This document shows positions 1,417 through 47,735 of a stretch of DNA of 64,000 nucleotides, in pieces (within the stretch, counting starts at the first letter, position 1; each line of letters starts with the position of its first letter). Source of the stretch: a virus. Its lineage: Duplodnaviria; Heunggongvirae; Uroviricota; Caudoviricetes. Under the pieces are notes generated by a model. That model did no database searches and was not told where the DNA came from. It worked only from the letters and a program-made list of their open reading frames with translations. The translations under genes and the position numbers were made by a program. The stretch lies in IMG/VR virus record IMGVR_UViG_3300026549_000042, positions 53,745-117,744 of that record; one strand, written 5' to 3'.

Positions 1417-1815
1417 TTGTTAATACATAAACTTATAGAAAAAATGGATAATCATTATAATAATCATTATAATTTTGGAATAATTACAGACAATAATATT
1501 ATATTGTTTAATAATGGCATACATGAGTTTCGATGTTCAATGTCTGATGCATTAGAAGATGTATATGTAACTATTGAAAATGGTATTTTGGAAATAAAAG
1601 CAAAACGTGTTATTTATGATTTTTATAATGATGAGGGATATCGAATTTTTGAAGATCAATGGAAACATACACCACATCAAAATGAAATTCATGAAGGCAG
1701 AAAATTTCCTTGGACAAAGAAAAAAAGATTTGTATATGCTGGTTATGTAAGGACTTATGAAAAAGAACCAGTAGAATTAATAATGAGTAATTTTAAAATT
1801 GAAATATACGATTAA
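1417..1815 (+). CDS. hypothetical protein
   Basis: 132-aa ORF, 3-nt spacing from upstream gene. Confidence 0.5.
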   Translation: MLIHKLIEKMDNHYNNHYNFGIITDNNIILFNNGIHEFRCSMSDALEDVYVTIENGILEIKAKRVIYDFYNDEGYRIFEDQWKHTPHQNEIHEGRKFPWTKKKRFVYAGYVRTYEKEPVELIMSNFKIEIYD

Positions 1816-11611: not shown

Positions 11612-11617
11612 ATTTAA

Positions 11618-12463
11618 CTAATAAATTATTGTTGATATTGGATATTCAAAATTATTATAGAAAATAATTCTTGACATCATAAATACTAATGTATGATATT
11701 TTGCCATCCAAATATTTTTTATATTATCAAAATCAATTTCTGTAGATGATAATAGTTGTTTTCTTTCATTTAATAATTTTCCATAATTAGTATTTTTATC
11801 TATACATTTAACATTACAAATTATTTTTATAAACTGATCAAATATTTTACATGTTTTAAAATTATCAATATTTATTAAATTTAAGTAATAATCAACATCT
11901 AAATTAGATTCATATATATTTATTTGGTTATCATATTTTTTATATGCACAATTATATAATGAATGAAATTGAAATTGTTCATTTTGATATTTTTCAAATT
12001 TTATATTATATTTATGTGTGACTGCTTCATATGAATTAATTAGTAAGTATTTTATTATATAATCTAAATCAATAAACTGGTAATCATTAGTCAAATTAAT
12101 ATAAAAATATAGATTATCAATTAGATGATCATCGGTTATTTTGTTATAAGTATAGTTTATTGAAAATTTTTCTGAATCAAAATTAACTATTAAGTACAAA
12201 TGATTAAAATATTGTTCATATATTTTACTATTAAAACAATCTTCTTTAGTTATTAAAATATTTTTTGAATATATATGTTTTATACATAGTTTACATAATT
12301 TTTCGCAATATTTATAGTTAAAATAATTGTAATAATCATAATAATAACTATAATAATTATCATTAATAGTATAAAAACATAATTTATATAAGTTAATAGA
12401 ATTATCTAAATTATTTATTAAATATTCATAATAACTTATTGATTCATCTGTCTTCTTCAACAT
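11618..12463 (-). CDS. hypothetical protein (N/Y-rich) in the insertion between nrdD fragments
   Basis: 281-aa ORF of extreme N/Y/I composition. Confidence 0.4.
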   Translation of the reverse strand: MLKKTDESISYYEYLINNLDNSINLYKLCFYTINDNYYSYYYDYYNYFNYKYCEKLCKLCIKHIYSKNILITKEDCFNSKIYEQYFNHLYLIVNFDSEKFSINYTYNKITDDHLIDNLYFYINLTNDYQFIDLDYIIKYLLINSYEAVTHKYNIKFEKYQNEQFQFHSLYNCAYKKYDNQINIYESNLDVDYYLNLINIDNFKTCKIFDQFIKIICNVKCIDKNTNYGKLLNERKQLLSSTEIDFDNIKNIWMAKYHTLVFMMSRIIFYNNFEYPISTIIY

Positions 12464-12662
12464 ATACTTTATTATCTTCTATTTTAACAATTTTGAATAC
12501 TGTTCCACCTGCATACCAACCATTACCGATCTTTGGATAGCGTTTCCATTTCTTTGCTCCTTCAGTAAAAGTTTTATCTAAAGATCCATTAACATATACT
12601 TCCCAGTCTTTACCGTTTTCTGGCTTGACTGCTTCATTTATATATTGTATTAATTTTTTCAT
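12444..12662 (-). CDS. small hypothetical protein immediately downstream of nrdD exon 2
   Basis: 72-aa ORF starting 2 nt after the exon-2 stop. Confidence 0.4.
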   Translation of the reverse strand: MKKLIQYINEAVKPENGKDWEVYVNGSLDKTFTEGAKKWKRYPKIGNGWYAGGTVFKIVKIEDNKVYVEEDR

Positions 12663-12663
12663 A

Positions 12664-12984
12664 TTAATCTTGTAATATTGTATTAACTATTGCATCTATT
12701 TCTTGATCAGTTTTATGTTCAACGTATTTTAGTCCATCCTTAAAATGCTTCATAAATGATTTACGAACATAAGGTACCATTGTCCAATCAATATGAGTAG
12801 CACCTACACCACCAAATTGTTGTAATGATTGTAATTGGAAAATAACAGCAACTAATTGCATGGCGGTATTTACTGAATTAGCTCCTCTAACATCTGTTTG
12901 TCTTGTCTTAAATCCTTCTGCAAGTAGCTTATCAAATGGTATGCTTAAACAGTTATGATCCCCCGTCATATAATGATCTAAATC
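12664..12984 (-). CDS. nrdD: NrdD exon 2 (N-terminal fragment, second part)
   Basis: DLDHYMTGDHNCLSIPFD...GANSVNTAMQLVAVIFQLQSLQQFGGVGATHIDWTMVPYVRKSF aligns to T4 NrdD HDIDYSPALPFTNC...GVATAIMAQITAQVASHQYGG; exon begins at the Asp codon after the intron-terminal G. Confidence 0.8.
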   Translation of the reverse strand, partial: DLDHYMTGDHNCLSIPFDKLLAEGFKTRQTDVRGANSVNTAMQLVAVIFQLQSLQQFGGVGATHIDWTMVPYVRKSFMKHFKDGLKYVEHKTDQEIDAIVNTILQD

Positions 12985-14105
12985 CATTTCCTCTTTATAT
13001 TTCTATATAGAACTGACTATATCATCTTCCATAAAGGAAGTTGCGCACTTCGAATAGTGTTAATCTCTATTCTACATCCTTACACTCATCAGGATTAGTC
13101 GATACACCTTTAAATTTATCCTTTTCAATAATTATTTTTAAGTTTTCAAATTTTTTATGCTTACTAAATTTAGGTTTCCACGTATTATTAATTATTTGAT
13201 AAGAAATAGTTCTTGATAATCCTAAATTATTTCTAATCCAAGAAAACATATCTTTTCTATATCTTGTTTCATATAGAATAGTATCATCTAATTTACAAAT
13301 AAAATTATCAGGACATTGAGCATTTCTATTATTTAAAATTGCTTGAAGAGATAATTTTCTTCCTTTTAATTTTAATCCTATTTGTTTATGCATTTCTTTG
13401 GCTTTTTCTGTTTTGTTAAAATTTTGTATTGCATTTCTAAGATTTTCAAGATGTTCTTGTGAAAAATGTCTTGAAACTCCTTTATTTGCTTTACTTATTC
13501 TTTCAAGTTGTTCTTTAGTATATACATGATGCCACATTGGATTTTTTTCACCTGTTCTTGTTTTTGCAAATTCACTTAATTTTTTTCTCATATTTTCACC
13601 ATAGTTTCCATGGTTTCCACCTCTACCACCTTCATGAAAATTTGCTTTACATTCGCCTCTTTCCCAATACTCATGTATTAATTTTCTTTCTAAATCCCAA
13701 GATTCTTGCTCATAAAGATTTTCATACAATTTTTTAACATCAACATTATTTCCCTCTTTTGCAATTATTGACTTAAAATAATTATTTCTATGAAATTCAA
13801 CATCTTTCCATCTATCATAACATCCTTTCCCTATATAAAATATCTCATTAGTATCTATATAGTACCAAGCATAAATATAATATTTGTTTTCTGTTGTATT
13901 CATATTATTTAATAAATTTATTTGGCTCGGTATTTCCAGCTATCCAAATTAATGGACCTTAGGTTCTCTTAGTCAGTGTATTCGTGAGTAGATCATTCTC
14001 CTTATTTAACTGATACCGATAGCAGAAGTTTAACTTCCACACCCCTTTAACATAGGTTCACGCAATTATTCAAAACATATTACTATATTAGGCCACAATT
14101 TTCTT
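12985..14105 (-). mobile_element. group I intron in nrdD carrying a GIY-YIG homing endonuclease gene
   Basis: Interrupts NrdD between ..MIYIH and DLDHY..; upstream exon ends in U and the intron ends in G; GC-richer flanks (12988-13066, 13904-14105) suggest a structured RNA; T4 nrdD has an intron in the same gene. Confidence 0.7.
13067..13903 (-). CDS. GIY-YIG homing endonuclease (intron-encoded) with NUMOD-like repeats
   Basis: YYIYAWYYIDTNEIFYIGKG...R...E; repeats GEKNPMWHHVYTKEQLERISKANKG and FSQEHLENLRNA. Confidence 0.85.
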   Translation of the reverse strand: MNTTENKYYIYAWYYIDTNEIFYIGKGCYDRWKDVEFHRNNYFKSIIAKEGNNVDVKKLYENLYEQESWDLERKLIHEYWERGECKANFHEGGRGGNHGNYGENMRKKLSEFAKTRTGEKNPMWHHVYTKEQLERISKANKGVSRHFSQEHLENLRNAIQNFNKTEKAKEMHKQIGLKLKGRKLSLQAILNNRNAQCPDNFICKLDDTILYETRYRKDMFSWIRNNLGLSRTISYQIINNTWKPKFSKHKKFENLKIIIEKDKFKGVSTNPDECKDVE

Positions 14106-14600
14106 ATGGATATATATCATATTTTCTTCGTGATTCTTTCGTGCCATCTTTGACATTGTCTTTAATGCAAGATTTTTAGCAACAGCACCTGCAGTTTCTC
14201 CTAAACGACCTCCAAAAGATGCTTCATCAAGATTTGCATTTTGATTTTGTACATTTTTTGCAGAAAGCTTATCATTAATTTGTTTCATTAAGTCAGATTT
14301 TTGTTCACGAATTTCTTCACGTTTACGTCTATAATTAATGAATGATTCAACAACTTCATATTTGTTTCTCTTAATAAGTTCCTTTTGAATTACATCTTGA
14401 ATTTCTTCAATAGGTGTTCCTTCACCATTGTTTTTTATAATAACCTTTTCAACTGCATCTTTAACTTGTTCTAAAAACTTCTCAGGAACTTCTTGATTGA
14501 CTGATGTAAAGGCTTTTGTAATAGCATCAGCAACTTTTATAAATGAATATTCCTGAGGAGTACCATCTCTTTTGATTACTTTCATATAAATAGAATTCAT
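14106..14600 (-). CDS. nrdD: NrdD exon 1 (ATP-cone plus start of catalytic domain)
   Basis: ATP-cone MKVIKRDGTPQEYSFIKVADAITKAF; ends ..SKMARKNHEENMIYIH, aligning to T4 ..IMKAHESGIIHVH; the ORF runs 5 codons into the intron before a stop. Confidence 0.8.
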
Positions 14601-14792: not shown

Positions 14793-15794
14793 TTATTTTT
14801 TCCAGTAACTATAAATATTTTTTTCTACCTCGTAATTGTCAAATATAAATGACTTCCTATCTTGTATGTTATTTGCCCAGTTCCACATATTTTTCAGGCC
14901 TTCTTCAAATGATATGTCTTCTTTATAGTCTAATATATCTATAGATTTTTTACCATCAGGATATGCAAAAAATACTTCATGACGTTTTTCAAGATATACT
15001 TTATCATGATATCCTGCAATATTCATTAATATATCGGCAGCTTCATTTATCGTATATTCTTTAAGACCTCCAAGATTAATAATTTGCTTACTTGCTTTAT
15101 CATATACCGCAGCATTCCATAAACAAGGCAAACAGTTATCAATATATGAAAATGCTCTTACTTGATTACCATCTCCATATATTGAAATTGGCAAGTTATG
15201 ATTTATTTGATTAATCCATATACCAAGTACATTACGATACTTATCCCATATATTTTGATTTTCTCCGTATACATTATGGGGACGAATAATACACCAGTCT
15301 AATCCATGCTGTATACCTGCAATTCTAATGTCTTGCTCACAACTATATTTTGCTACTCCATAAGGATCTATAGGTGCAGGGGTATCATTCTCTGTAAACA
15401 TAGAATTTGACATATTTCCATGACCGTATACTGACATTGATGATGTAAATATTAGTCGTCTTACATTAAAGTTTATACATGCATTTACTACATTAGCTGT
15501 TGCTACCATATTATTCATATAATTAAACCTACGAATAAACGGTGATAATCCTTCAGCAGCATACGCAGCAAGATGATATACATATTCTATATCATATAAT
15601 TCAAAAATATCTTCAATATCATCTGTTGCTAAATCTCTATCATATAATGTACATCCTTTAGGCAAATTGTCTAAATAACCGCCAAGTAAATTGTCTATAC
15701 CTATAACATTATATTCTGGATGTGTGTTTATTATATATTCTGCTAATCTACTACCAATAAAACCAGCAGCTCCTGTTATTAAAATCGATTTCAT
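14793..15794 (-). CDS. NAD-dependent sugar-nucleotide epimerase/dehydratase (GalE-like SDR)
   Basis: Rossmann motif ITGAAGFIGSRLAEY, catalytic YGVAKY; adjacent to glf. Confidence 0.8.
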   Translation of the reverse strand: MKSILITGAAGFIGSRLAEYIINTHPEYNVIGIDNLLGGYLDNLPKGCTLYDRDLATDDIEDIFELYDIEYVYHLAAYAAEGLSPFIRRFNYMNNMVATANVVNACINFNVRRLIFTSSMSVYGHGNMSNSMFTENDTPAPIDPYGVAKYSCEQDIRIAGIQHGLDWCIIRPHNVYGENQNIWDKYRNVLGIWINQINHNLPISIYGDGNQVRAFSYIDNCLPCLWNAAVYDKASKQIINLGGLKEYTINEAADILMNIAGYHDKVYLEKRHEVFFAYPDGKKSIDILDYKEDISFEEGLKNMWNWANNIQDRKSFIFDNYEVEKNIYSYWKK

Positions 15795-16963
15795 TAATTA
15801 AGTGTCTCTATATATTTATCATTAAATACTATATTCTTATAATCTTCCATTGCCTCCTTAATACAATCATCCATGTCTAAATATTTATACTTTCCGATTC
15901 TTCCACCAGGTATGATATTTGGATATGTCTTTTGTAATAATTCGATATATTTAGTATATAAAGTATTGTTTTCTTCGTCATTAATAGAATAATATCGTTC
16001 CTTTTCTGGTGTCCAATCATCAGGAATCTCAAGCGTCTTAATAGTATAATTTCCTATAAAAGATTCAACAGATTCAGGAGTAAACCAAATATGATCAATT
16101 ATTCGTGTTCCTTGTTGGTTGTCTATTAAATTTGTAACAGCAATACCTTCAGATGATTTATAATCAAACTTATATAAATTATGTTCGAATCTTAAACTAC
16201 GATATTGTAAAACTCCTAATTCATAGTCAAGTAATTCATCTATAGCTCCACAATATATTACTTTACTATATTTACTTAATTCTTCTTTATGATCAAGTAT
16301 ATTATAATTTAGTTTTACATCAATGCCAGACAATATGTTAGATATCATTTTTGTATATCCGCCTATAGGAATACCTTGAAATATGTCATCAAAATAGTCA
16401 TTATTATAATTCATTCGTATAGGTATTCTATTTATGATAGATGCCGGCAATTCTTTAGGATCTTTATTCCATTGTTTTTGAGTATATTTCTTTATGATCT
16501 TTTCATATAATGTCTTACCAACCAATGATAATGCCTGTTCTTCAAGATTAGTAGAATTTTCAATATTTAACTTTTCACTTTCAATAGTTTCTAATATCTT
16601 TTTACTATCTATTGTTCCAAACACATCATAAAATGTATTCTTATTAAATGGTAAATGATATATCTTATTGGCAGAATCTATAGCAATTACAGAATGTCTA
16701 TAGTTATTGAATTCTGCATAATTACTTACAAAATCTATTACAGTTTTGTCAGATGTATGAAATATATGTGCACCGAATTCATGAACAGTCATACATTTTC
16801 CATCTTCAGCATAGAATGGATTATCATGGCACATTCCACCAACATATTCATGCTTATCAACTACTAAACATTTATGATTATTGTTTGTCAATAACCTTGC
16901 TATTGTTGCTCCATATAATCCTGCACCAACAATCAAATATTCATAATTATTATCTTCATTCAT
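15794..16963 (-). CDS. glf: UDP-galactopyranose mutase
   Basis: FAD motif LIVGAGLYGA, FGAHIFHT, EEQALSLVGKTLYEKIIKKYTQKQW; collinear with E. coli Glf. Confidence 0.9.
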   Translation of the reverse strand: MNEDNNYEYLIVGAGLYGATIARLLTNNNHKCLVVDKHEYVGGMCHDNPFYAEDGKCMTVHEFGAHIFHTSDKTVIDFVSNYAEFNNYRHSVIAIDSANKIYHLPFNKNTFYDVFGTIDSKKILETIESEKLNIENSTNLEEQALSLVGKTLYEKIIKKYTQKQWNKDPKELPASIINRIPIRMNYNNDYFDDIFQGIPIGGYTKMISNILSGIDVKLNYNILDHKEELSKYSKVIYCGAIDELLDYELGVLQYRSLRFEHNLYKFDYKSSEGIAVTNLIDNQQGTRIIDHIWFTPESVESFIGNYTIKTLEIPDDWTPEKERYYSINDEENNTLYTKYIELLQKTYPNIIPGGRIGKYKYLDMDDCIKEAMEDYKNIVFNDKYIETLN

Positions 16964-18021
16964 TAGAGTTGTCGTTTCTTTAGGATTTCAATAAACTGAT
17001 CTTCAGTAAAAGTACAACCAGCTGCACCTTTATGACCTCCACCATTATATTTTTCTTTTAAAAATTCACCACAATGGAAATAGTCATCATTATTGATATT
17101 GTACATAGACAATACCCAATTTCCATTAGATTGATGTTTAAATACAAGACCATTTCTAATGTCTTTATTTTGTAAACATTTGAACATTAATGAATTTGAT
17201 TGCCCTTCATGAAATATTGCACATGCCTTTCTATAAAATGGCCTTCCTCTGTCGGCATCATCAACCACTATATTCCAAGAACAATCTCCATTATATTTAA
17301 TAATATTTTCTATAGTTATATCTTCATAATCATTAAGTTCTTGCCCGCGTTTATACATGTTACCAATTAGTATATTCTCAAATTGAATATCTAATCCATT
17401 ATGATATATTCCAATAATATATTGAACCGTTTCTAATACTTTATCAATATTTAAGTTAAATTCAACAGTAGTACCTTTATTTATATGTCTTACCCATTCA
17501 TGAGTATATCCTTCATGTTCATATGACCAACTGTCCCATGCAGAAAGTATTCTAAAAAACTCAGGAAATTCTCTGTGTAATTCAGGAATAGGTTTATTTG
17601 CATCTATTTGATTATACTTTTCATTAAATGGATCATAAAAATATTCATAAGCACATAATATAGCCGATTTTGAAGTATTTCGAACACCTTCACAATCAAA
17701 TCCATTCTTTACTTTTAATGATTCATTTATAATTGGTGCATGATGATCAAACCATATCATATTATGAGCAAATTCATTATAAAGATCATGCATATAATCT
17801 GCAGTAAAAGATATATCAGTCAATATAATAGTATTATATCTTTCATGAAGTTTCTTTGGCGTATTGTTTTTCTGAAAATAATTCATTAAATTATAATCGG
17901 CACCAATAAGATTAATTTCATCTCTTGCTATATCATGTGTTATAAGATAATTAAGTATTATTGCTGCAGAAAATACACCGTCATTATCTTCTTTATGATA
18001 TATTAATAAATATTTTTTCAT
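16963..18021 (-). CDS. DHH-family phosphoesterase (NrnA/RecJ-like)
   Basis: Motif I YHKEDNDGVFSAAI, motif III FDHHAPI. Confidence 0.65.
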   Translation of the reverse strand: MKKYLLIYHKEDNDGVFSAAIILNYLITHDIARDEINLIGADYNLMNYFQKNNTPKKLHERYNTIILTDISFTADYMHDLYNEFAHNMIWFDHHAPIINESLKVKNGFDCEGVRNTSKSAILCAYEYFYDPFNEKYNQIDANKPIPELHREFPEFFRILSAWDSWSYEHEGYTHEWVRHINKGTTVEFNLNIDKVLETVQYIIGIYHNGLDIQFENILIGNMYKRGQELNDYEDITIENIIKYNGDCSWNIVVDDADRGRPFYRKACAIFHEGQSNSLMFKCLQNKDIRNGLVFKHQSNGNWVLSMYNINNDDYFHCGEFLKEKYNGGGHKGAAGCTFTEDQFIEILKKRQL

Positions 18022-18117: not shown

Positions 18118-19797
18118 ATGAATTTAGTTGTATCATTAAATAATATTGATGAATTAAAAGATATTAATATTGATGAAAATATTAAAGAAAAATTTGATAA
18201 TATTTTCTATGTTTTCAATGATAGTCAAATAGAAAAACTTAAGTTATTATATCCTAATGATATTATAATTGTAAATAAGAATAATAAATTATTTAATAAT
18301 AAAGTTAATATAAGTATTCTTATTCCTGTATATAATTGTGAAAAGTATATTAAAACATGTTTAGATAGTTGTCTAAAACAAGATTTTGAAGGAACTTATG
18401 AAATTATTATTGTTGATGACGGGAGTACTGATAATACAGTAAATATTATTAAATCATATAATGACAATAAAATTAAATTATATAAATTAGAGCATAATGG
18501 TATAAGTAATGCTTTAAATTTTGGATTGTCTAAATGTGAAGGTGAATATATTTGTAGAATGGATGGAGATGATGAAATGTATGTTAATAGATTGACAATA
18601 CAATATAAATATATGTTAAGACATCCAGATACTGATATATTAAGTAATGGATTGCTGTGTTTTGATGAAAGCTTAACATATATAAAAGATAATATCTCTA
18701 TATGTAATTTTGATAAATCCAATCTATTATTATTAGATATTGTCAATAATTGTGATATACACCATCCTTGTACATTTATAAAAAACAATATTAATGGATT
18801 TTATTATGACAATACTTATGATGGATTTGAAGATTATGAGTTATGGTTTAGATTGATAAAATATGGATATAAGATATCTTCTTGGCATATACCTGTAATT
18901 AAATATAGATATAGAGAAAATTCAAATAGTCATAATATAAATATTGTAAATGATGTAAATAAATTAAAAACAAATATATTAGAAGAATCTAAAAAAATAG
19001 TTGGTATTTATTATATTGCTACAGGTATATATAAAAACAATTTTAAAAAATTTTTAGAATCAATACATAATTTCTTACCAATATATAATAAAACAATTAT
19101 ATTATTAACTGATGGCTTGGAAGAATATAAAAACTATAGTAAAGACAATATAAATATTGAACATCATTATATTGAAGATCATCCATGGCCAATAGTTGCA
19201 TTATTTCGTTTTCATTATATATTAAAATATAAAACAAATTACGATTATATATTTTTTATAAATTCAAATGCAGTAATTAAAGAAAATAAATCAATAAATT
19301 GGTTTGATCAAAACAAAATAAATGTTACCAAGCATTTTACATATCGCTCTGGCGTTTTAACTACATATGAAATGTTATTACCAAGTGATGATAACCCAAA
19401 TTCAACTTCATATATAGGAAATATTGAATATACATATTGTCAAAGTGGTTTTTTTGGTGGTCCAAATAATTTAATTTATGAAATGTGTGAAGATATTGTA
19501 AATATAATAGATATTGACTTAAAAAATAATATTATTGCAAAATGGCATGATGAAACATATTTTAATAAATGGTTATATAGTAAAAAATATGATAATAGAT
19601 TAATTAATATTACTGATGTATTTTTTACTAAAAATTTTTCACAAGAGAAAAAATCTAATTTTATTTATCTTGAATATAAAAATGAAGATGATAAAGATTT
19701 AAATAAAAAGAAAAAGTTAGAAAATAAATTAAATTATGGACAATATAAAAATGAACATAATTATGATTTAGACAAAAATACATTAAATAAAATTTAA
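18118..19797 (+). CDS. bifunctional glycosyltransferase: N-terminal GT2 domain fused to a C-terminal GT6 (ABO-like alpha-1,3-Gal/GalNAc-transferase) domain
   Basis: GT2: ISILIPVYNCEKYI...IIIVDDGSTDNT...MDGDDE; GT6: HPWPIVALFRFHYI, FINSNA (NxN in place of DxD), QSGFFGGP, WHDETYFNKW (compare human GTA/GTB HDESHLNKY). Confidence 0.75.
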   Translation: MNLVVSLNNIDELKDINIDENIKEKFDNIFYVFNDSQIEKLKLLYPNDIIIVNKNNKLFNNKVNISILIPVYNCEKYIKTCLDSCLKQDFEGTYEIIIVDDGSTDNTVNIIKSYNDNKIKLYKLEHNGISNALNFGLSKCEGEYICRMDGDDEMYVNRLTIQYKYMLRHPDTDILSNGLLCFDESLTYIKDNISICNFDKSNLLLLDIVNNCDIHHPCTFIKNNINGFYYDNTYDGFEDYELWFRLIKYGYKISSWHIPVIKYRYRENSNSHNINIVNDVNKLKTNILEESKKIVGIYYIATGIYKNNFKKFLESIHNFLPIYNKTIILLTDGLEEYKNYSKDNINIEHHYIEDHPWPIVALFRFHYILKYKTNYDYIFFINSNAVIKENKSINWFDQNKINVTKHFTYRSGVLTTYEMLLPSDDNPNSTSYIGNIEYTYCQSGFFGGPNNLIYEMCEDIVNIIDIDLKNNIIAKWHDETYFNKWLYSKKYDNRLINITDVFFTKNFSQEKKSNFIYLEYKNEDDKDLNKKKKLENKLNYGQYKNEHNYDLDKNTLNKI

Positions 19798-19854
19798 CTG
19801 ATTTTTTACAATGTTGTCTAAAATTAAATATTATAATAAATTTAATTAAAAATC

Positions 19855-20724
19855 ATGAATAGTATATATTTTTTTACAATAGCCACAAATACATATAAAG
19901 AATACTTAAATAAATTTGTTAAATCTTTAGATAATTGTTTTCCTGATAATGATAAGAAATTGATTGTAATAAGCGACAAGGATTATATAAATAATATAAA
20001 TAATATTTATACATATAATTATCATATTTGTGATACTAATTATGCATTATGTGCTTTACAAAAATATACATATATTTATGATTCTATACAGTATCTTCAA
20101 TTAAAACTAAAAAAGAATGACTTAATATTCTTTTGTGATGTTGATTCATATTTTATAGAAAAATCAAAATCATATTGGAATAAGATATATAATTCTATAA
20201 TAAAATATGATATCTGTATATCTATTTTTCCATGGAATTATAATGATACTAATAAATATAGAGTAATGAAAAAATATAAAAATATACCATCAATTGCACA
20301 AATAAACAAATTTAGATATAATCTTTTATGTGCATCATTTTTAATTGCTAAGCCATTTTGGTTTAACAAAATATATAAATTAGTTGATTTATTAACAGCG
20401 TATGATATGGCTAATTTACAAAATGGTTGTAGAATAATTCCAGAATTACCTGAACAAGAATATTTAAATAAAATTATTCAAGAAAATATAATAAATACAA
20501 ATAATATATGGGTAGATTATTTTCAAATTATAAGTAATGATATTTTTTTACAAGAAAAGCATAAAACATTAAATGATTTTTTAGAAAATAATGAATATAT
20601 ATTTTCTATTAAAGATTATGATCCCACTATAAAATTAAAAAATATAAAACGTAATCTTTCTAAGAGTAATATAATGCAGTTTATAAAAAATGAATCTAAC
20701 AATAACAGTAATGATAACACCTGA
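19855..20724 (+). CDS. divergent GT6-like protein (possibly degenerate)
   Basis: N-terminal IYFFTIATNTYKEYLNKFVKSLDNCF...KLIVISD aligns with GT6 [25 protein letters not shown]...YYVFTD; IFPWNY present, but the FGG and HDE motifs are degenerate. Confidence 0.4.
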   Translation: MNSIYFFTIATNTYKEYLNKFVKSLDNCFPDNDKKLIVISDKDYINNINNIYTYNYHICDTNYALCALQKYTYIYDSIQYLQLKLKKNDLIFFCDVDSYFIEKSKSYWNKIYNSIIKYDICISIFPWNYNDTNKYRVMKKYKNIPSIAQINKFRYNLLCASFLIAKPFWFNKIYKLVDLLTAYDMANLQNGCRIIPELPEQEYLNKIIQENIINTNNIWVDYFQIISNDIFLQEKHKTLNDFLENNEYIFSIKDYDPTIKLKNIKRNLSKSNIMQFIKNESNNNSNDNT

Positions 20725-21514
20725 TATAACTTATTATTTTTGCTGTCATAAAGATATTGACTTAACATATATTAATAAATATGTAGATAATATTGATGAT
20801 AATAGAATAAATATTATTTGTAATGAAGATAATAATATAATAACAAAATATAATATCATTAAAGAACCTTATAATGATCTTCAATGTTTTTATGGGGAAA
20901 ACTCTAGAATGATTTATATATATAAATTATATAAAGAAGGAAAAATTAAATTAAGTGATTATATATCATTTAACCAATATGGATTGTTTTTTAATTTTTA
21001 CATGTATGATAGAATGTGTGGATTATTAAAGTATAATGATGCATTAGTACATGGGCAATATTTTAATAATATATATAATAGTTATAATAGTTTACATAAT
21101 GGCGAAGACTTATTAGAAATTGTTAATTATATATGTGAAAAATATAATGTAAATAAATATTATAAAGAATATTTTTTATATGATGCAAATTATCCAGGAC
21201 ATTATAATATATTTATACTTAAAAAAAACATATTTATTAAATATATAGAATTTATAATTGATATATCAGATTATTATAAAAGAAAACATAATATTAATAC
21301 ACAAAATGATTTAAGAAAATATATATCAAATAATGCAAATAAATATTATAATGAAAATAAACTTAATTGGTATTGGGGAGTTGATAATCAAATGAGATTA
21401 TTTGGATTTATATCAGAAAGAATATTTGGATTATTTTTGACAATAAATAAAATAAATTATTCTACATTTCCTTATATAGATATACAATATCTATCAAAAA
21501 TAAATAGAAATTAA
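20690..21514 (+). CDS. hypothetical protein in the glycan locus
   Basis: 274-aa ORF overlapping the upstream gene by 35 nt. Confidence 0.45.
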   Translation: MNLTITVMITPDITYYFCCHKDIDLTYINKYVDNIDDNRINIICNEDNNIITKYNIIKEPYNDLQCFYGENSRMIYIYKLYKEGKIKLSDYISFNQYGLFFNFYMYDRMCGLLKYNDALVHGQYFNNIYNSYNSLHNGEDLLEIVNYICEKYNVNKYYKEYFLYDANYPGHYNIFILKKNIFIKYIEFIIDISDYYKRKHNINTQNDLRKYISNNANKYYNENKLNWYWGVDNQMRLFGFISERIFGLFLTINKINYSTFPYIDIQYLSKINRN

Positions 21515-21521: not shown

Positions 21522-22346
21522 ATGACAGATAATACATTAATAATAAGTTTAACATCATGGACAAAACGTATTGATACTGCATTTTTTACATTAACTAAAT
21601 TATATGATATATCATTAAATAAAGATGTACAAATTATATTTAACTTATCACAAGAAGAATTTCCTTATGGTATAAATAGTCTCCCATATTGCTATAAAGA
21701 GTTTTTACAAAAAAGTTCTATAATTATTAATGTTGATGAAGGTAATATTAGGGCGCATAAAAAACTTATGCCAACATTAGAAAAATATCCATATAATGAT
21801 ATTTTAGTTGTAGATGATGACAAATTATATGAGGAAGATATGATAGATAATTTTTTACAAGCTCATAATAAATTTCCACATGATGTTATAGTTGGTAGAT
21901 CTCATTTTAGAATATATGGTGAAAACAATAAATTTATATCTAAACCAATAGTTTATGATTTAAGTAAAATATGGGAAACACCATTAAGTCCATTATTTAA
22001 TTGTAAACAAGCATCTGGATTAGCTGGAACATTATACCCCGTAGGTACTTTTACGGATCCTTTATTTTTCGATAGAAAACTAATGATGGAAAGTTGCTAT
22101 TATAGTGATGAAGATTGGCAATGGTTTTTTAATATAAAAGAAAATAGAACATTAAGAACAAATTTTAAAGTAAAAGTATATTCAGGAAATAATGATGGTG
22201 ATGAATATGCATTATATAATAATTATGGACAATCTTATTATGAACAATACTATTACAATTTTCAAAAAATCTGGTCAGATTTTTATGATAGACTTAATGA
22301 ATTAAATGATCAGTTTATAAGATATTATCCTGAACTTTCTGTGTAA
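21522..22346 (+). CDS. putative glycosyltransferase (GT-A-like, DDD motif)
   Basis: ILVVDDDKLYEED acidic motif; located in the glycan locus; function tentative. Confidence 0.4.
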   Translation: MTDNTLIISLTSWTKRIDTAFFTLTKLYDISLNKDVQIIFNLSQEEFPYGINSLPYCYKEFLQKSSIIINVDEGNIRAHKKLMPTLEKYPYNDILVVDDDKLYEEDMIDNFLQAHNKFPHDVIVGRSHFRIYGENNKFISKPIVYDLSKIWETPLSPLFNCKQASGLAGTLYPVGTFTDPLFFDRKLMMESCYYSDEDWQWFFNIKENRTLRTNFKVKVYSGNNDGDEYALYNNYGQSYYEQYYYNFQKIWSDFYDRLNELNDQFIRYYPELSV

Positions 22347-30340: not shown

Positions 30341-30523
30341 ATGTCAATTAAAGAAGTAATATATGAAGTTCTTAAGAACAATATGGACAATAACTGTAAT
30401 AATGATACCGAAATTGTTGTAGATGGTGAGAATTTTATGGGAGCCCCTATTAAACGAATTTATTATGATAAGGAAGTAAACCAATTATGTATAAAAATAA
30501 ATGAAAATGAAGCGATGGATTAG
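30341..30523 (+). CDS. small hypothetical protein
   Basis: 60-aa ORF. Confidence 0.35.
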   Translation: MSIKEVIYEVLKNNMDNNCNNDTEIVVDGENFMGAPIKRIYYDKEVNQLCIKINENEAMD

Positions 30524-33029: not shown

Positions 33030-33070
33030 AAAAAAGAACCTTACTTAAGTAAGGTTCTTTTGTTTTTTTA
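33030..33070. terminator. bidirectional terminator
   Basis: aaaaa-agaaccttacttaagtaaggttct-tttgttttttt; palindrome with CTTAAG core. Confidence 0.65.
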
Positions 33071-33877
33071 AGATAACCAATAAAATGGATATAATTTAGT
33101 ATAAAATGTTGATGTAGTAGAATATAAATAAATTCCAATTAAAAATTCTATTGCTATACCGTATATTCTTTTATGATTTTCTTTAGTTGTAAACCATGTA
33201 AATTTATCGCATATTTTTTCCATATCAACAATTTCATATATATTATCATCCATAAAAACAGAAAATTCTTCAATAGTATTAATATTGTATTTTCTTAATA
33301 TATGTCTTATAAATGATTCTATGAAATTAACTAAAGATTGAAAAGTATTCCAATTTGTAACATATATTTCACGTCCACAAATATATAAGATATTGTTTTC
33401 TGTTGTGATATTTTCTATCTTTTTTATTTTAGAATGCTCTTTAATTTGTTGTTGTATATCTATTGGTTGAGATTCCATAAACTCAACAAAATCATTATAT
33501 ACAGAAATTGCCCCATATTCATATAAATAAGCATATATAAGTTCATATGTTGCTTTCTCTTTTATAGCCTTTTCTAAAAAATTTTTATATATGTTATAAG
33601 TACATGTAAATATTTGTGTCTTATTATTTTCTATTATTTCTTTACTGTTTATAATATATTTGTCTATAATTCGTCTATATTGGCAAAAACCTATATAATC
33701 TTCAGGTCGTCCATATTTCGCGATACAATATTGTGCAACAAATTCATTAATATATTTATCCATCTTCAATATTATATCATCATTATTTACGGTATATACA
33801 AGTCTAGTGTTTAAGTATTTATAATTATTGTTGCTTACATAAACAAATGAATCACTATGTCCTATTATATATATCAT
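33068..33877 (-). CDS. hypothetical protein
   Basis: 269-aa ORF directly downstream of a putative glycosyltransferase. Confidence 0.45.
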   Translation of the reverse strand: MIYIIGHSDSFVYVSNNNYKYLNTRLVYTVNNDDIILKMDKYINEFVAQYCIAKYGRPEDYIGFCQYRRIIDKYIINSKEIIENNKTQIFTCTYNIYKNFLEKAIKEKATYELIYAYLYEYGAISVYNDFVEFMESQPIDIQQQIKEHSKIKKIENITTENNILYICGREIYVTNWNTFQSLVNFIESFIRHILRKYNINTIEEFSVFMDDNIYEIVDMEKICDKFTWFTTKENHKRIYGIAIEFLIGIYLYSTTSTFYTKLYPFYWLS

Positions 33878-33879: not shown

Positions 33880-34707
33880 CTAAATTTCATTATATTTATA
33901 TGCTCTTTGCTCATTTGCAGTCAATATACTTTCTTTATCTTTTAAGTCTTCATTAATCTCAAAAAAATCATGTAACTTTCTTGAATATGCATTATTGTCC
34001 ATTTCACCTCTTACAAATAATCTGTTACAATATTCTTCCCATGATTTTGTAAGATAATGTCTTAATTTAAATGGTGGTTCTGCGGCCCAGTGTGTATCAT
34101 AAAACTTTTTTGCGGTTTCAGGTAAATTATATACATACAATGGTCCATGTGGAATATTAGCAAATTCATTATCCTCCATTCTATGAACAAACAATAATGG
34201 CTTTCCGTTGTCATTCATATCTATATATCTTTTAGTCATTGGTTTAGTATATGTTTCTATCAATGAATATTCTTTACCATGTCCAGGATCTTCAATATGT
34301 CCATTTGCGGTCATTGTTATCCATCTAAACTTTATTGCATGCTTACCCTCATTATATATATTATTTATGTATGACAAAAATTCTTCTTTATTACAGTCTA
34401 AAAATTCATCAATATCAATATATAATACAGCATCATAATTCTTACTAAACTTTCTTTTGAATATATACCACATTATTGCTATTCTATATTCACCATTAAA
34501 AGCACCGTTTAACTCTTGTTCATTACATACATCTATGAATTTATACAGTTTAACATTTGGATATTGATTAGTAATTTCTTTATGTGAAGTACTATTAATG
34601 TCTTCAAATAATATAATATCATCTATGCCAATGCTTGTATAAAACTCGATGAACTCTCTTAAATATCTTTGTTCATCTTTAATCATCGTACATGTACAAA
34701 TTTTCAT
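33880..34707 (-). CDS. putative glycosyltransferase (GT-A-like, DxD motif)
   Basis: AVLYIDIDEFL acidic motif; overall layout resembles small GT-A transferases; tentative. Confidence 0.45.
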   Translation of the reverse strand: MKICTCTMIKDEQRYLREFIEFYTSIGIDDIILFEDINSTSHKEITNQYPNVKLYKFIDVCNEQELNGAFNGEYRIAIMWYIFKRKFSKNYDAVLYIDIDEFLDCNKEEFLSYINNIYNEGKHAIKFRWITMTANGHIEDPGHGKEYSLIETYTKPMTKRYIDMNDNGKPLLFVHRMEDNEFANIPHGPLYVYNLPETAKKFYDTHWAAEPPFKLRHYLTKSWEEYCNRLFVRGEMDNNAYSRKLHDFFEINEDLKDKESILTANEQRAYKYNEI

Positions 34708-43572: not shown

Positions 43573-44703
43573 ATGATAAAAATAGATAGTTGTATAATAG
43601 TCAAAAATGAAGAAAACAATATTTCACCTTTATTGGATCAATTATTACAGTTTTCTTCAGAAATTCATATTACAGATACTGGATCAACAGATGCAACAGT
43701 TAGTATTATTGAAGACTATGCAAAAAATTATCATAATATATTTGTAAATCATTTTGATTGGATATATGACTTTAGTGCGGCAAGAAATTTCTCATTAAAT
43801 TATGATAATGATACATCGGAATTTAAATTTTGGTGTGATGCTGATGATCAATTAAGTGATAAGCTTCTACAAATGCTTATTGATATAGCACAAAATGGTG
43901 ACTATAATACAATGAATGGTGCATACGGAATAAGATATGTATATTATACTGGAGACAAAAACCCATATTTTAGAATACCTTTATTTAAGACAAATTCCGG
44001 TTTTAAATGGAATGACCCAATACACGAATATCTTTCATTTGATCAATCAACAATACATAACTATAATTACTTTACCGATGATGCAGTAATTATTCATAAA
44101 CGAGCTGAAGGCGTAACTCATAATGATAGAAATCTTCAAATATTCAAAAATGCTGAAGCTGAAAATAAGCCGTTCACTTCTAGAATGTATCATTATTATG
44201 GTATGGAACTGTATCAAGCAGGTGATGAACGTGCATATGAGATACTTACAAAGTCTTTATACTGTGAAGAACATATAGATCCACAAAATCTAGTTCGTTC
44301 ATTATGTACAATGTATATAATTGATAAAGATAATAATGGATGGATTAATGAAGCATATAGAGTAATGAGTAAGGGCATTTGTAGGGGTGATTTATTGTAT
44401 TATATTGGAAATTGGTATATGAAACGAGAATTGATTGAACTTGCGAAAATGTTCTATAAAAGTGCATTAACATTTAGAATACCAAAATCATTAACATTTG
44501 GACTTAACAATATGGACATAACTATAAATCCATTATTGCAACTTGGTGTTATATATGCAAATTTTGAACATGATTTCAATAAAGCATTAATGTGCAATAA
44601 ATCAGTATTAGACTATGATCCTAACAACCAAACAGCTAAGTCAAATATTGCAATACTATATAAGCTTATTAATGAACAAAATATTAAAAATACTGAAATG
44701 TAA
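43573..44703 (+). CDS. glycosyltransferase family 2 protein with C-terminal helical (TPR-like) region
   Basis: DSCIIVKNEENNI...HITDTGSTDATV...FWCDADD. Confidence 0.65.
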   Translation: MIKIDSCIIVKNEENNISPLLDQLLQFSSEIHITDTGSTDATVSIIEDYAKNYHNIFVNHFDWIYDFSAARNFSLNYDNDTSEFKFWCDADDQLSDKLLQMLIDIAQNGDYNTMNGAYGIRYVYYTGDKNPYFRIPLFKTNSGFKWNDPIHEYLSFDQSTIHNYNYFTDDAVIIHKRAEGVTHNDRNLQIFKNAEAENKPFTSRMYHYYGMELYQAGDERAYEILTKSLYCEEHIDPQNLVRSLCTMYIIDKDNNGWINEAYRVMSKGICRGDLLYYIGNWYMKRELIELAKMFYKSALTFRIPKSLTFGLNNMDITINPLLQLGVIYANFEHDFNKALMCNKSVLDYDPNNQTAKSNIAILYKLINEQNIKNTEM

Positions 44704-47036: not shown

Positions 47037-47735
47037 ATGAAAAATATCAAAATTGTTTATATTGCAACAAACAAATATATTGAGAGATTTAAGTATTTTC
47101 TTGAAGAACTCAAATATTTTTATCCAAATGATCATAAAGAAGTAATATTATTAAGTAATGTACATGTTCATAAATATGATGATTATAATCATAATAATGT
47201 TTCTATAAAGTTTTATATGATTGATCATTATCCTTGGCCGATTATAGCATTATTTAAAATGCATTATATAAAGAAATTCATAAATGAAAATGATGATTTT
47301 ATATTTTATTTTAATAGTAATGCATATCCAAAAAGATATTTTGATGATCAAGATCTTTTGAATGATGATAGACTTATTTGTTTTAGAGTAAAAAAGGAAG
47401 GATATTTTAAAACTTGGAATGACTTAAATCCATTTAATCAAGAAATAAAATATGTTCAGTCTGGATTATTTGGCGGTAATTATAATTCTATATTAGAAAT
47501 GTGTAATTATGTTACAAATCGAGTAAATGAATTACTTCGAAAAAATATAATTGATAAACTTCATGATGAAACTGCACTAAACTCATATATATCAGTGTTA
47601 GATTCTTCAAAATATGTTATTAAAGATTGGTATGATATGGCAATCCTTGACTATGAGCGATTTAATAGTGGATTAGGATTAGATAATAAATTGCACACAC
47701 ATTATGGTATTTTAGATAGAGTAGAAATCTATTAA
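47037..47735 (+). CDS. glycosyltransferase family 6 (ABO-like) homologue, stand-alone
   Basis: IVYIATNKYIERFKYFLEEL, HYPWPIIALFKMHYI, FYFNSNA (NxN), QSGLFGGN, LHDETALNSY. Confidence 0.7.
   Translation: MKNIKIVYIATNKYIERFKYFLEELKYFYPNDHKEVILLSNVHVHKYDDYNHNNVSIKFYMIDHYPWPIIALFKMHYIKKFINENDDFIFYFNSNAYPKRYFDDQDLLNDDRLICFRVKKEGYFKTWNDLNPFNQEIKYVQSGLFGGNYNSILEMCNYVTNRVNELLRKNIIDKLHDETALNSYISVLDSSKYVIKDWYDMAILDYERFNSGLGLDNKLHTHYGILDRVEIY

What the first reader, a model, noticed from the sequence alone, without database searches (positions are those of the whole stretch)
18118..20724. Three GT6 (ABO blood-group-type) glycosyltransferase homologues, one fused to a GT2 domain, all with NxN in place of DxD
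The C-terminal half of 18118..19797 and the stand-alone 47037..47735 carry the GT6 signature blocks (HPWP, FGG, WHDE..NK[WY]). They replace the metal-binding DVD with FINSNA / FYFNSNA, the hallmark of metal-independent bacterial GT6 enzymes (Bacteroides ovatus BoGT6a type). 19855..20724 is a third, degenerate copy. A GT2-GT6 fusion suggests synthesis of a two-sugar epitope (for example an alpha-1,3-Gal/GalNAc cap) by a single polypeptide. GT6 genes are rare outside vertebrates, a few Bacteroides/E. coli O-antigen loci and cyanophages. Their multiplication in a phage points to host surface-glycan remodelling or mimicry of host blood-group-like antigens.
Basis: partly seen in the sequence, partly recalled or inferred. 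Interest (0 to 1): 0.7.

Follow-up and report, generated by a model that had tools for sequence, protein, structure and literature searches.

The report
Three GT6-fold glycosyltransferases in a phage
A large phage, whose relatives occur in the sheep rumen, carries its own sugar-building toolkit with three relatives of the enzymes that make human ABO blood-group sugars: two are of a metal-independent type not seen in other sampled viruses, and the third belongs to an undescribed metal-type side branch, not a decayed copy.

Summary
The three ORFs exist exactly as described, and all three are GT6-fold proteins.

- **18118..19797** is a GT2–GT6 fusion (Pfam GT6 above its cut-off; BoGT6a E = 2e-12) with NSN and WHDE.
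- **47037..47735** is its paralogue (38% identity), with NSN but LHDE.

So "all with NxN" is wrong.

The canonical copies form a phage-lineage-specific clade (200/200 bootstraps). Relatives in that clade carry NxD and DxN variants. None of 82 IMG/VR viral GT6 domains is NxN.

The genes sit in a cassette with UDP-galactopyranose mutase, an SDR epimerase/dehydratase, a GT111-like (Galf-transferase family) gene and other GTs. A GmaR/SunS-like protein-glycosyltransferase homologue lies beside the portal.

The best reading is a phage-encoded assembly line for a galactose-rich glycan, probably on phage protein. ABO-type mimicry is unsupported: the window has no GT11 or GT10 gene. GT2–GT6 fusions also occur in other viral contigs. 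This is a new variant of a known kind.

The parts
14793..15794 (-). NAD-dependent sugar-nucleotide epimerase/dehydratase (SDR); exact reaction unresolved
   Evidence: PF01370 E = 1.7e-43. NCBIfam hits to dTDP-glucose dehydratase and GalE are all far below their equivalog cut-offs.
15794..16963 (-). UDP-galactopyranose mutase (Glf), which supplies UDP-Galf
   Evidence: PF03275 E = 2.8e-56. TIGR00031 scores 315.5 bits against an equivalog cut-off of 303.75.
16963..18021 (-). DHH/DHHA1-like phosphoesterase between Glf and the fusion gene; role in the cassette unknown
   Evidence: Weak PF01368 and PF02272 hits, both below cut-off. The gene is conserved at this position in L001 and L002.
18118..19797 (+). 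GT2-GT6 fusion glycosyltransferase (559 aa)
   Evidence: A 578-aa orthologue is present in the sheep-rumen relatives L006-L008.
18313..18711 (+). GT2 domain (aa 66-198) with DDGSTD (18415-18432) and the DGDD metal motif (18562-18573)
   Evidence: PF00535 E = 1.8e-34. Motif coordinates.
18985..19590 (+). GT6 domain (about aa 290-491)
   Evidence: Coordinates: NSN 19261-19269, WHDE 19543-19554, HPWP 19180-19191, FFGG 19450-19461. PF03414 34.1 bits against a cut-off of 25. BoGT6a E = 2.2e-12. It keeps BoGT6a I8, T10, Y13, W66, R73, N95, N97, H122, G124, Y153, G157, W189, H190, D191 and E192.
19855..20724 (+). GT6-fold glycosyltransferase of a divergent DxD/Gln subfamily (289 aa)
20690..21514 (+). 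DUF4422 / GT111-like protein (candidate galactofuranosyltransferase); overlaps the previous gene by 35 nt
   Evidence: PF14393 26.6 bits against a cut-off of 25. DUF4422 corresponds to the GT111 UDP-Galf transferase domain of WbbM (PMC12269835). No phmmer hit to WbbM.
21522..22346 (+). Uncharacterised protein with a DDD motif and a weak GT2-like hit; last gene of the + strand run
   Evidence: PF00535 E = 0.097, not significant. No PDB or NCBIfam hit. Conserved in L001-L003.
33068..33877 (-). Second DUF4422-like ORF (weak)
   Evidence: PF14393 20.6 bits, below the cut-off of 25.
33880..34707 (-). GT2-type glycosyltransferase
   Evidence: PF13704 31.4 bits against a cut-off of 27.5.
43573..44703 (+). 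GT2 + TPR protein resembling protein/peptide glycosyltransferases; lies in the structural module
   Evidence: PF00535 E = 7.9e-17 plus a weak TPR hit. Best PDB hits are GmaR 1.7e-9, SunS 9.6e-8 and 7msk 1.5e-6, against a generic GT2 at 1e-3.
47037..47735 (+). Stand-alone NxN GT6 paralogue (232 aa)
   Evidence: Coordinates: NSN 47313-47321, LHDE 47559-47570. 38% identity and E = 1e-32 to the fusion's GT6 domain. BoGT6a E = 1.9e-4. phrog_3317 E = 3.2e-15. It groups with the fusion GT6 domains in a phage-specific clade supported 200/200.

Best explanation
The window comes from a large T4-like-portal phage whose relatives occur in the sheep rumen. It encodes its own cytoplasmic glycan assembly line.

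SHOWN
- Three GT6-fold proteins are present: two canonical NxN paralogues (one fused behind a GT2 domain) and one member of a divergent DxD/Gln subfamily.
- They sit beside a UDP-galactopyranose mutase, an SDR epimerase/dehydratase, a GT111-like gene and further GT2-type genes.

INFERRED FROM FAMILY KNOWLEDGE
- The epimerase/dehydratase and Glf supply UDP-hexoses, including UDP-Galf.
- The GT2 domain adds a beta-linked sugar using a metal (DGDD motif).
- The fused NxN GT6 domain then adds an alpha-linked Gal or GalNAc without a metal. The polypeptide therefore makes a disaccharide unit, or possibly an alternating polymer.
- The DxD/Gln GT6-fold enzyme adds another alpha-linked hexose with a metal. 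Its active site resembles the Asp-Gln arrangement of GT8 enzymes.
- The GT111-like protein adds Galf.

MORE SPECULATIVE
- The acceptor is a phage protein, probably a virion protein.
- Glycosylation would be started by the GmaR/SunS-like GT2+TPR enzyme next to the portal, and the second NxN GT6 in that module would cap or diversify the glycan.
For: FAMILY ASSIGNMENT.

ACTIVE-SITE RESIDUES: The fusion keeps nearly all BoGT6a donor and catalytic residues, and its GT2 domain keeps DDGSTD and DGDD.

COPY 3 IS UNDER SELECTION: DVD, T11, Y14, LPEQEYLNK and C-terminal K253, K260 and R266 are invariant among homologues about 50% identical. D95 is invariant across the 27-member family.

PATHWAY CONTEXT: Glf passes its equivalog cut-off. 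DUF4422 passes Pfam gathering and corresponds to the GT111 Galf transferase. The genes are packed tightly, with a 35-nt overlap and 7- and 57-nt gaps.

CONSERVATION WITH VARIATION: The cassette core (SDR enzyme, GT2-GT6, copy-3 family) is conserved in the rumen relatives, where the accessory GTs are swapped for GT25 x2 and GT10. This modular pattern is typical of glycan diversification.

PROTEIN TARGET: ORF 43573's best structural relatives all glycosylate proteins or peptides. That gene and GT6 47037 lie in the portal/terminase module, as do the three GT6 genes of L005. No polysaccharide export or polymerase family was detected in the Pfam scans. Virion glycosylation by phage GTs is documented (PMC12619734, citing Freeman 2023).

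MECHANISM OF COPY 3: Current work treats the GT6 Glu as orienting the acceptor in an SNi-like mechanism. LgtC works with Asp188/Gln189 plus DXD.
Against: - No activity, donor, acceptor or linkage was measured, and none can be measured with these tools.
- The SDR enzyme is not assignable to a reaction.
- The GT111 call is marginal (26.6 against 25 bits) and has no direct WbbM match.
- The E192Q change in BoGT6a lowers kcat 2x10^4-fold, so copy 3 could be a poor enzyme or inactive.
- ORF 47037 lacks W189 and H122, and K231 cannot be aligned with confidence.
- The GmaR/SunS resemblance is far below the NCBIfam equivalog cut-off (37 against 350 bits).
- No glycosylated acceptor protein was identified.
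- Only 64 kb of a probably much larger genome was seen, so DNA-modification or export genes could lie elsewhere.
Confidence: 0.5

Rival explanations
1. Host surface-glycan remodelling. The soluble GTs act on the host's undecaprenyl-linked O-antigen, capsule or teichoic-acid intermediates during infection. This would change the cell surface, for example for superinfection exclusion or antigenic mimicry.
For: - PHROGs places these GTs in 'moron, auxiliary metabolic gene and host takeover', and the GT2 domain weakly hits a GtrB-like family.
- Characterised bacterial GT6 enzymes make surface HBGA-like antigens.
- The closest functional analogue, WbbM, is an O-antigen enzyme.
Against: - No Wzx, Wzy, ABC-transporter, GtrA or initiating phosphoglycosyltransferase family was detected in the window.
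- The phage has a T4-type portal, terminase and NrdD, and no integrase was detected in the window. Seroconversion is typical of temperate phages.
- One GT6 and the protein-GT-like gene sit in the structural module.
Confidence: 0.2
2. True ABO-type blood-group A/B antigen synthesis. The NxN GT6 domains cap a Fuc-alpha1,2-Gal (H-type) acceptor with alpha1,3-GalNAc or Gal, as BoGT6a does.
For: - The fusion keeps H122 and G124, residues linked to accepting 2'-fucosylated substrates in BoGT6a and GTA/B.
- The rumen relatives carry a GT10-family gene.
- GT6-GT11 fusions exist in other genomes.
Against: - No GT11 (alpha1,2-fucosyltransferase) or GT10 gene was found in the window, and no assignable GDP-fucose pathway.
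- The neighbours point to Galf chemistry (Glf, GT111-like).
- ORF 47037 has K at the H122 position and L at W189.
Confidence: 0.1
3. DNA hypermodification. The GTs build a glycan on hydroxymethylated bases of the phage DNA to evade restriction, as in T-even phages and other viruses.
For: - The phage has T4-like features.
- Phage GTs that glycosylate DNA with diverse glycans are documented (Pyle 2024, cited in PMC12619734).
- A DNA methylase and nucleotide-metabolism genes are nearby.
Against: - No thymidylate-synthase-like hydroxymethylase was found in the window.
- In the literature read here, the characterised GT6, GT111 and GmaR/SunS relatives act on sugar or protein acceptors. Whether any of them ever acts on DNA was not checked.
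- The number of GT domains (eight or nine) far exceeds the one or two sugars added by the T-even phage DNA glucosyltransferases (my own knowledge).
Confidence: 0.08
4. ORF 19855..20724 is a catalytically dead GT6 pseudoenzyme, for example a lectin-like or scaffolding partner of the fusion protein. This is the closest defensible version of 'degenerate copy'.
For: - Gln replaces the Glu that is conserved in all known GT6, and E192Q cuts BoGT6a kcat 2x10^4-fold.
- W189, H190, H122, Y153 and the GG pair are also replaced.
Against: - The nucleotide-binding residues (I, T, Y), DxD and C-terminal basic residues are strictly conserved. A non-enzyme would not need them.
- Family members alternate E and Q at this site.
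- GT8 enzymes are active with Asp-Gln here, and the SNi mechanism does not need a nucleophile.
Confidence: 0.15

Closest known systems
Bacteroides ovatus BoGT6a (PDB 4AYJ, 4AYL, 4CJ8), a metal-independent GT6
   Same: - It is the best solved-structure match for all three ORFs.
- It is a minimal catalytic domain of about 240 aa.
- NxN replaces DxD in the fusion and in ORF 47037.
- The fusion keeps WHDE and most donor-binding residues.
   Different: - Sequence identity is only about 28-31%.
- The phage copies form their own clade (200/200), and their link to the bacterial NxN clade is unresolved (48/200).
- One copy is fused to GT2.
- ORF 47037 has L at the W189 position and K at H122.
- ORF 19855 has DVD and Gln at the E192 position.
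- There is no fucosyltransferase context.
Cyanophage GT6 (P-SSM2, P-SSM5, Syn Bellamy) and other IMG/VR viral GT6
   Same: - They are GT6 domains carried by tailed phages with T4-like features.
- Some viral GT6 are also fused to GT2 or GT4 domains.
   Different: - Viral GT6 are DxD-type. The literature groups phage GT6 with the metal-dependent enzymes, and 81 of 82 IMG/VR domains are DxD with none NxN.
- Identity to the window's copies is 35% or less.
Klebsiella pneumoniae O2a WbbM (GT111 + GT8 bifunctional galactan-I synthase)
   Same: - It pairs a DUF4422/GT111 Galf transferase with a retaining alpha-1,3-Galp transferase and depends on Glf.
- The window has the same functional trio, with a GT6-fold enzyme in place of GT8.
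- It is a precedent for a two-domain polypeptide making a two-sugar repeat.
   Different: - The retaining enzyme here is GT6, not GT8.
- The domains lie in separate genes, except for GT2-GT6.
- The GT111 assignment is marginal, with no direct WbbM sequence hit.
- WbbM works on a lipid-linked O-antigen; the target here is unknown.
GT8 retaining transferases (LgtC, glycogenin)
   Same: ORF 19855's family combines DxD with [D/E]-Q-x-x-[L/I]-N, like the Asp188-Gln189 and DXD site of LgtC.
   Different: - No GT8 entry appears among the 60 best PDB profile hits.
Virus-encoded protein glycosylation systems (mycobacteriophage capsid/tail glycosylation; PBCV-1 and Mimivirus, the latter two from my own knowledge)
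   Same: They combine virus-encoded GT clusters, sugar-nucleotide enzymes and multi-domain GTs, and they glycosylate virion proteins. PBCV-1 A64R and Mimivirus R699 appear as generic GT-A neighbours.
   Different: - No sequence relationship beyond the shared GT-A fold.
- No glycosylated phage protein has been identified here.

Membership tests
CAZy GT6 / Pfam PF03414 | Match to the family HMM at or above the curated threshold | tested here: inconclusive
   - Fusion: met, 34.1 bits against 25.
- ORF 47037: not met on its own (13.6 bits), but 38% identical to the fusion domain (E = 1e-32).
- ORF 19855: no hit.

CAZy GT6 / Pfam PF03414 | GT-A fold whose nearest solved structures are GT6 enzymes | tested here: met
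   - Fusion and ORF 47037: tested by sequence only, with BoGT6a the top GT6 hit.
CAZy GT6 / Pfam PF03414 | DxD or NxN motif at the junction of the N- and C-subdomains | tested here: met
   NSN (fusion), NSN (ORF 47037) and DVD (ORF 19855) all fall in the same alignment column as BoGT6a N95-A-N97.
CAZy GT6 / Pfam PF03414 | Catalytic Glu (BoGT6a E192, alpha3GT E317), described as conserved in all known GT6 | tested here: not met
   - Met in the fusion (WHDE) and in ORF 47037 (LHDE).
- Not met in ORF 19855, where Gln201 aligns to E192.
- ORF 19855 is therefore filed as GT6-fold or GT6-related, not as a canonical GT6 member.
CAZy GT6 / Pfam PF03414 | Conserved acceptor-contacting Trp (BoGT6a W189) | tested here: inconclusive
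   Present in the fusion. Leu in both ORF 47037 and ORF 19855.
CAZy GT6 / Pfam PF03414 | C-terminal Lys (BoGT6a K231, alpha3GT K359) that stabilises the UDP leaving group | tested here: inconclusive
   - Fusion: LEYK aligns with the RDK of other GT6.
- ORF 47037: no Lys in that column, and the alignment there is unreliable.
- ORF 19855 family: conserved K253, K260 and R266, but their equivalence to K231 is not shown.
CAZy GT6 / Pfam PF03414 | Retaining alpha-1,3-Gal/GalNAc transferase activity | not testable with these tools
   Needs an enzyme assay.
Metal-independent bacterial GT6 clade (BoGT6a type) | Asn-X-Asn in place of Asp-X-Asp | tested here: met
   Met for the fusion and ORF 47037. Not met for ORF 19855, which has DVD.
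Metal-independent bacterial GT6 clade (BoGT6a type) | Phylogenetic placement inside the bacterial NxN clade | tested here: inconclusive
   In the NJ tree with 200 bootstraps, the phage clade joins the bacterial NxN sequences in 48/200 replicates and viral DxD sequences in 25/200. BLAST shows it equidistant from both.
Metal-independent bacterial GT6 clade (BoGT6a type) | Activity without divalent cations | not testable with these tools
   Needs an assay with and without Mn2+, Mg2+ and EDTA.
GT2 (PF00535) | HMM match above threshold and a DxD metal motif | tested here: met
   Fusion aa 66-198, 119.5 bits against 23.3. DDGSTD and DGDD are present.
GT111 / DUF4422 (WbbM N-domain type Galf transferase) | PF14393 match above threshold, and similarity to the WbbM GT111 domain | tested here: inconclusive
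   ORF 20690..21514 scores 26.6 bits against 25, which is marginal. phmmer finds no PDB hit to WbbM. ORF 33068..33877 scores 20.6 bits, below the cut-off.
UDP-galactopyranose mutase (Glf) | Equivalog-level HMM match | tested here: met
   TIGR00031 scores 315.5 bits against 303.75. PF03275 E = 2.8e-56.
SunS/GmaR-type protein or peptide glycosyltransferases | GT2 catalytic domain plus a TPR-like substrate-recognition domain, with an equivalog-level match | tested here: not met
   - The architecture is compatible: GT2 E = 7.9e-17 with a weak TPR hit at E = 0.0095.
- The best PDB hits are GmaR, SunS and 7msk.
- TIGR04195 scores only 37.4 bits against a cut-off of 350.
- This counts as a resemblance, not membership.

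The most novel reading that the evidence does not exclude
This phage lineage glycosylates its own virion proteins with a self-made, galactose-rich Galp/Galf heteroglycan, as giant viruses do. Its lineage-specific GT6 expansion diversifies the terminal alpha-linked epitope. The NxN, NxD, DxN and DxD/Gln forms found within one phage lineage (including the tandem double-domain enzymes of relatives) would capture, within that lineage, the transition between metal-dependent and metal-independent catalysis. The ORF 19855 family would be a previously unrecognised GT6-related family that uses a GT8-like Asp/Glu-Gln active site.
Probability: 0.25. Interest if true: 0.75.

Novelty: new variant of a known kind. 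Interest (0 to 1): 0.5.

Why it matters
**Metal dependence in GT6.** GT6 is the textbook family for ABO antigens and for the link between DxD or NxN and metal dependence. Here a single phage lineage holds closely related NxN, NxD and DxN forms. It also holds a conserved DxD/Gln branch that current HMM libraries (Pfam, NCBIfam) miss. These are natural variants for testing how metal dependence and the 'catalytic' Glu can be gained or lost.

**Viral NxN enzymes.** The window is also a counter-example to the view that viral GT6 are DxD enzymes.

**Phage glycobiology.** A cassette of about nine GT domains plus Glf in a large phage related to sheep-rumen phages suggests that self-contained glycan synthesis, known from giant viruses and mycobacteriophages, extends to large phages of this kind. 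That could affect immune recognition, adhesion or host range.

**Caveat.** None of this is demonstrated biochemically.

Tried and rejected
1. Megablast of 14-24 kb against 50,697 phage records gave no match. The phage was placed with the portal protein instead.
2. The first AF2 model of ORF 19855, from a 3-sequence alignment, had pLDDT 49.6 and was discarded. The 27-sequence alignment gave pLDDT 90.8.
4. I tried to infer the host or gene donor from bacterial GT6. The best matches are only 29-36% identical and span many phyla, so this was uninformative.
5. The fusion protein found no relative in IMG/VR by peptide patterns. Alignment A4 was too divergent for the locus search.
6. The first NJ run had a distance-cap bug that produced NaNs. 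Its numbers are discarded in favour.
7. The promoter scan found 108 sites against 106 expected by chance, so it was not used.
8. Rfam found no family in the window, so there is no intron evidence for the split NrdD.
9. An accidental query at window:48937-49000 contained a stop codon and returned an error.
10. The third large protein search and the third fold search were not used because they would not change the verdict.


Full report
**1. The observation**

All three ORFs are present on the + strand at the stated coordinates: 18118..19797 (559 aa), 19855..20724 (289 aa) and 47037..47735 (232 aa).

*The fusion.* Pfam finds a GT2 domain (PF00535, aa 66-198, E = 1.8e-34) and a GT6 domain (PF03414, aa 290-490, 34.1 bits against a cut-off of 25) in the 559-aa protein. 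Its C-terminal half matches the metal-independent Bacteroides ovatus enzyme BoGT6a at E = 2.2e-12 over residues 3-200 of 246, and it matches human ABO transferases and bovine alpha3GalT more weakly. HPWP, FINSNA, FFGG and WHDE..NKW are all present.

*ORF 47037.* On its own it scores below the Pfam GT6 cut-off (13.6 bits). However, it is 38% identical to the fusion's GT6 domain (E = 1e-32) and hits BoGT6a at E = 1.9e-4, with its NSN under BoGT6a's NAN.

**2. The third copy**

ORF 19855 has no Pfam, NCBIfam or direct PDB sequence hit. It is still a real GT6 relative:
- BLASTP to the fusion domain gives 31% identity over 110 aa (E = 7e-5).
- hhalign of its small family against a GT6 alignment gives 97.2% probability, E = 3e-11, over 191 columns.
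- A 27-member family profile, with canonical GT6 sequences removed, hits only GT6 among the 60 best solved structures: BoGT6a 5e-13, ABO 4e-8, alpha3GalT 9e-7.
- An AlphaFold2 model built from that same alignment is confident (pLDDT 90.8, pTM 0.90).
- The Foldseek top 50 hits are all GT6 (E about 1e-11).
- All three ORFs hit the same PHROG, phrog_3317.

It is neither NxN nor degenerate:
- D95-V-D97 aligns exactly under NSN.
- DVD and LPEQEYLNK are invariant in homologues 48-53% identical.
- D95 is invariant across the whole family.
- Gln201 sits where every known GT6 has its key Glu (BoGT6a E192). The best-scoring PDB chain for the family profile is in fact the BoGT6a E192Q mutant.
- Across the family this site alternates between E and Q, preceded by D or E.
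- The family is rare: 61 of 1.84 billion cluster representatives at E = 1e-3 or better, and only 3 of 44 members scanned hit PF03414.

**3. Functional residues**

I mapped the residues characterised in BoGT6a onto the window proteins.
- The fusion keeps I8, T10, Y13, W66, R73, N95, N97, H122, G124, Y153, G157, W189, H190, D191 and E192. Its LEYK aligns with the RDK that contains K231.
- ORF 47037 keeps the nucleotide-binding residues, NSN and HDE. It has K at the R73 position, K at H122 and L at W189.
- ORF 19855 keeps I, T and Y and has DVD. It replaces W66, H122, Y153, the GG pair, W189, H190 and E192.

**4. Genome context**

*What genome this is.* The window has about 26% GC and encodes a T4-type portal (PF07230, E = 5e-80), a T4-type terminase and an anaerobic NrdD. 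The nearest portals belong to 460-735 kb uncultured huge phages, Sphingomonas phage PAU, Tenacibaculum phages and Lak phages. Contigs L001-L004 carry a 99%-identical ORF 19855 protein, and L001 and L002 show the same gene order from Glf through the GT run. More distant relatives come from the sheep rumen metagenome AUXO01.

*The cassette.* One side is a divergent set on the - strand: an SDR epimerase/dehydratase (reaction not assignable), UDP-galactopyranose mutase (TIGR00031, 315.5 against 303.75 bits) and a DHH-like protein. The other side is a tight + strand run: the GT2-GT6 fusion, the DxD GT6-fold gene, a DUF4422 gene (26.6 against 25 bits) and an uncharacterised ORF with a DDD motif. DUF4422 corresponds to the GT111 UDP-Galf transferase domain of WbbM. 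WbbM pairs it with a retaining alpha-1,3-Galp transferase to make galactan I.

*Other GT genes.* There is a GT2_4 gene and a weak second DUF4422 at 33-34.7 kb. A GT2+TPR gene at 43573..44703 has GmaR, SunS and 7msk as its best solved relatives; all three glycosylate proteins or peptides. That gene and GT6 47037 lie in the portal/terminase module. In relative L005, three adjacent GT6 genes occupy the same neighbourhood.

*What was not found.* None of the ORFs scanned hit a GT11, GT10, Wzx/Wzy, ABC-transporter or initiating-transferase family, or a hydroxymethylase. The scans covered every non-overlapped ORF of 120 aa or more except 1417..1815.

**5. Comparative picture**

- In deposited phages, GT6 occurs in 12 of 50,697 records, almost all cyanophages.
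- One peptide pattern recovers 101 IMG/VR contigs and 91 bacterial or archaeal species.
- Of 82 viral GT6 domains, 81 are DxD and none is NxN. Bacterial and archaeal genomes give 51 NxN and 25 DxD. This agrees with the literature, which groups phage GT6 with the metal-dependent enzymes.
- The window's NxN copies are thus atypical for viruses.
- A bootstrap NJ tree (144 sequences, 223 columns) puts both window NxN copies, the rumen fusion, P0001 and the NxD forms of L005, P0003 and P0004 in one clade at 200/200. The multiplication is therefore an expansion within this lineage.
- The deeper placement of that clade is unresolved: 48/200 with bacterial NxN and 25/200 with viral DxD.
- Relatives carry CNAD (NxD) domains. 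In tandem double-domain proteins they also carry N-terminal CDSN (DxN) domains.
- The GT2-GT6 architecture is not unique. L116 is GT2-GT6, and L168 is methyltransferase-GT2-GT6. GT4-GT6 and GT6-GT11 fusions also occur.

**6. Mechanism**

*Shown.* The family and fold assignments, the motif states, the gene context and the lineage-specific expansion.

*Inferred from family knowledge.*
- Glf, and possibly the SDR enzyme, supply UDP-Galf and UDP-hexoses.
- The GT2 domain (DGDD) makes a beta linkage with a metal.
- The fused NxN GT6 adds an alpha-linked Gal or GalNAc without a metal.
- The DxD/Gln enzyme acts with a metal. Recent work treats the GT6 Glu as orienting the acceptor in an SNi-like mechanism, and LgtC functions with Asp188-Gln189 plus DXD. 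Gln at this site therefore need not mean inactivity, although E192Q cripples BoGT6a.
- The GT111-like protein would add Galf.

*More speculative.* The acceptor is a phage protein, probably in the virion. This rests on the GmaR/SunS-like gene, the location in the structural module, the lack of export machinery, and published precedent for phage virion glycosylation.

*Rivals that remain possible.* Host-surface remodelling, DNA glycosylation and a true ABO-type epitope. The evidence seen in this window does not favour them.

**7. Verdict**

The finding is real and partly misdescribed. It is a new variant of a known kind: canonical GT6 members of an unusual (NxN) type for a virus, plus an unrecognised GT6-related DxD/Gln subfamily, inside a phage glycan-synthesis cassette. 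Interest is moderate at 0.5.

Noticed in passing
window 8864-10591 (-) and 14088-14600 (-): The anaerobic ribonucleotide reductase NrdD appears split. An ATP-cone plus the first ~47 positions of the NrdD profile lie at 14088-14600, and profile positions 241-562 lie at 8864-10591. Three unannotated ORFs (10610-13903) sit between them. Rfam finds no intron. The cause is unexplained; it could be an intervening mobile element or a genuinely split gene.
   Followed up: partly
L005 9013-12222 (ENA ERZ27251020 k141_52197): A related phage has three adjacent GT6 genes next to its terminase and portal. Two are tandem double-domain proteins of about 415 aa. Their C-terminal domain carries CNAD (NxD), and a degenerate N-terminal GT6-like domain carries CDSN (DxN). 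These are possible natural intermediates between DxD and NxN.
   Followed up: partly
L107 5905-9273 (IMG/VR giant-virus MAG) and L032 2972-5311 (Alistipes MAG): These loci encode single polypeptides that join GT6 to GT11, the alpha1,2-fucosyltransferase (H-antigen) family.
   Followed up: no
L006 5030-10846 (sheep-rumen relatives L006-L008): The orthologous cassette keeps an SDR enzyme, the GT2-GT6 fusion and the ORF 19855 family. It replaces the DUF4422 gene and ORF 21522 with two GT25 genes and a GT10 (fucosyltransferase family) gene. This is modular swapping of accessory GTs between related phages.
   Followed up: partly
window 48360-49970 (+): A 536-aa protein with EF-hand calcium-binding motifs (PF00036, E = 3.7e-12) lies in the structural-gene region, which is unusual for a phage.
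   Followed up: no
window 36000-38657 (-): The large terminase ORF is 885 aa. The T4-type terminase N-domain begins only at about residue 368, which leaves an unexplained N-terminal extension of about 360 aa.
   Followed up: no
window 31005-33005 (+), 30501-30971 (+), 28401-29261 (+): Three unexpected genes: a 666-aa SPFH/Band-7 protein (E = 1.4e-21), a '6-fold beta flower' protein (PF21786, E = 1.4e-29), and an ORF matching only the N-terminal domain of S-adenosylmethionine synthetase.
   Followed up: no
window 18118-20724 and 47037-47735: The GT6-fold genes have even lower GC (18.7-22.7%) than the window average of 26.3%. The 16-24 kb region is the GC minimum of the window.
   Followed up: no
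window 49996-63904 (-): A run of seven large ORFs (384-1074 aa) shows no meaningful Pfam match; one has a weak TetR_C_5 hit below its cut-off. They are presumably novel structural or tail proteins of this phage clade.
   Followed up: no
one search compared: The word-indexed protein search with the GT6 domain did not return the 578-aa rumen fusion protein, although its GT6 domain is 71% identical to the query. Counts from that tool therefore understate how many relatives exist.
   Followed up: no
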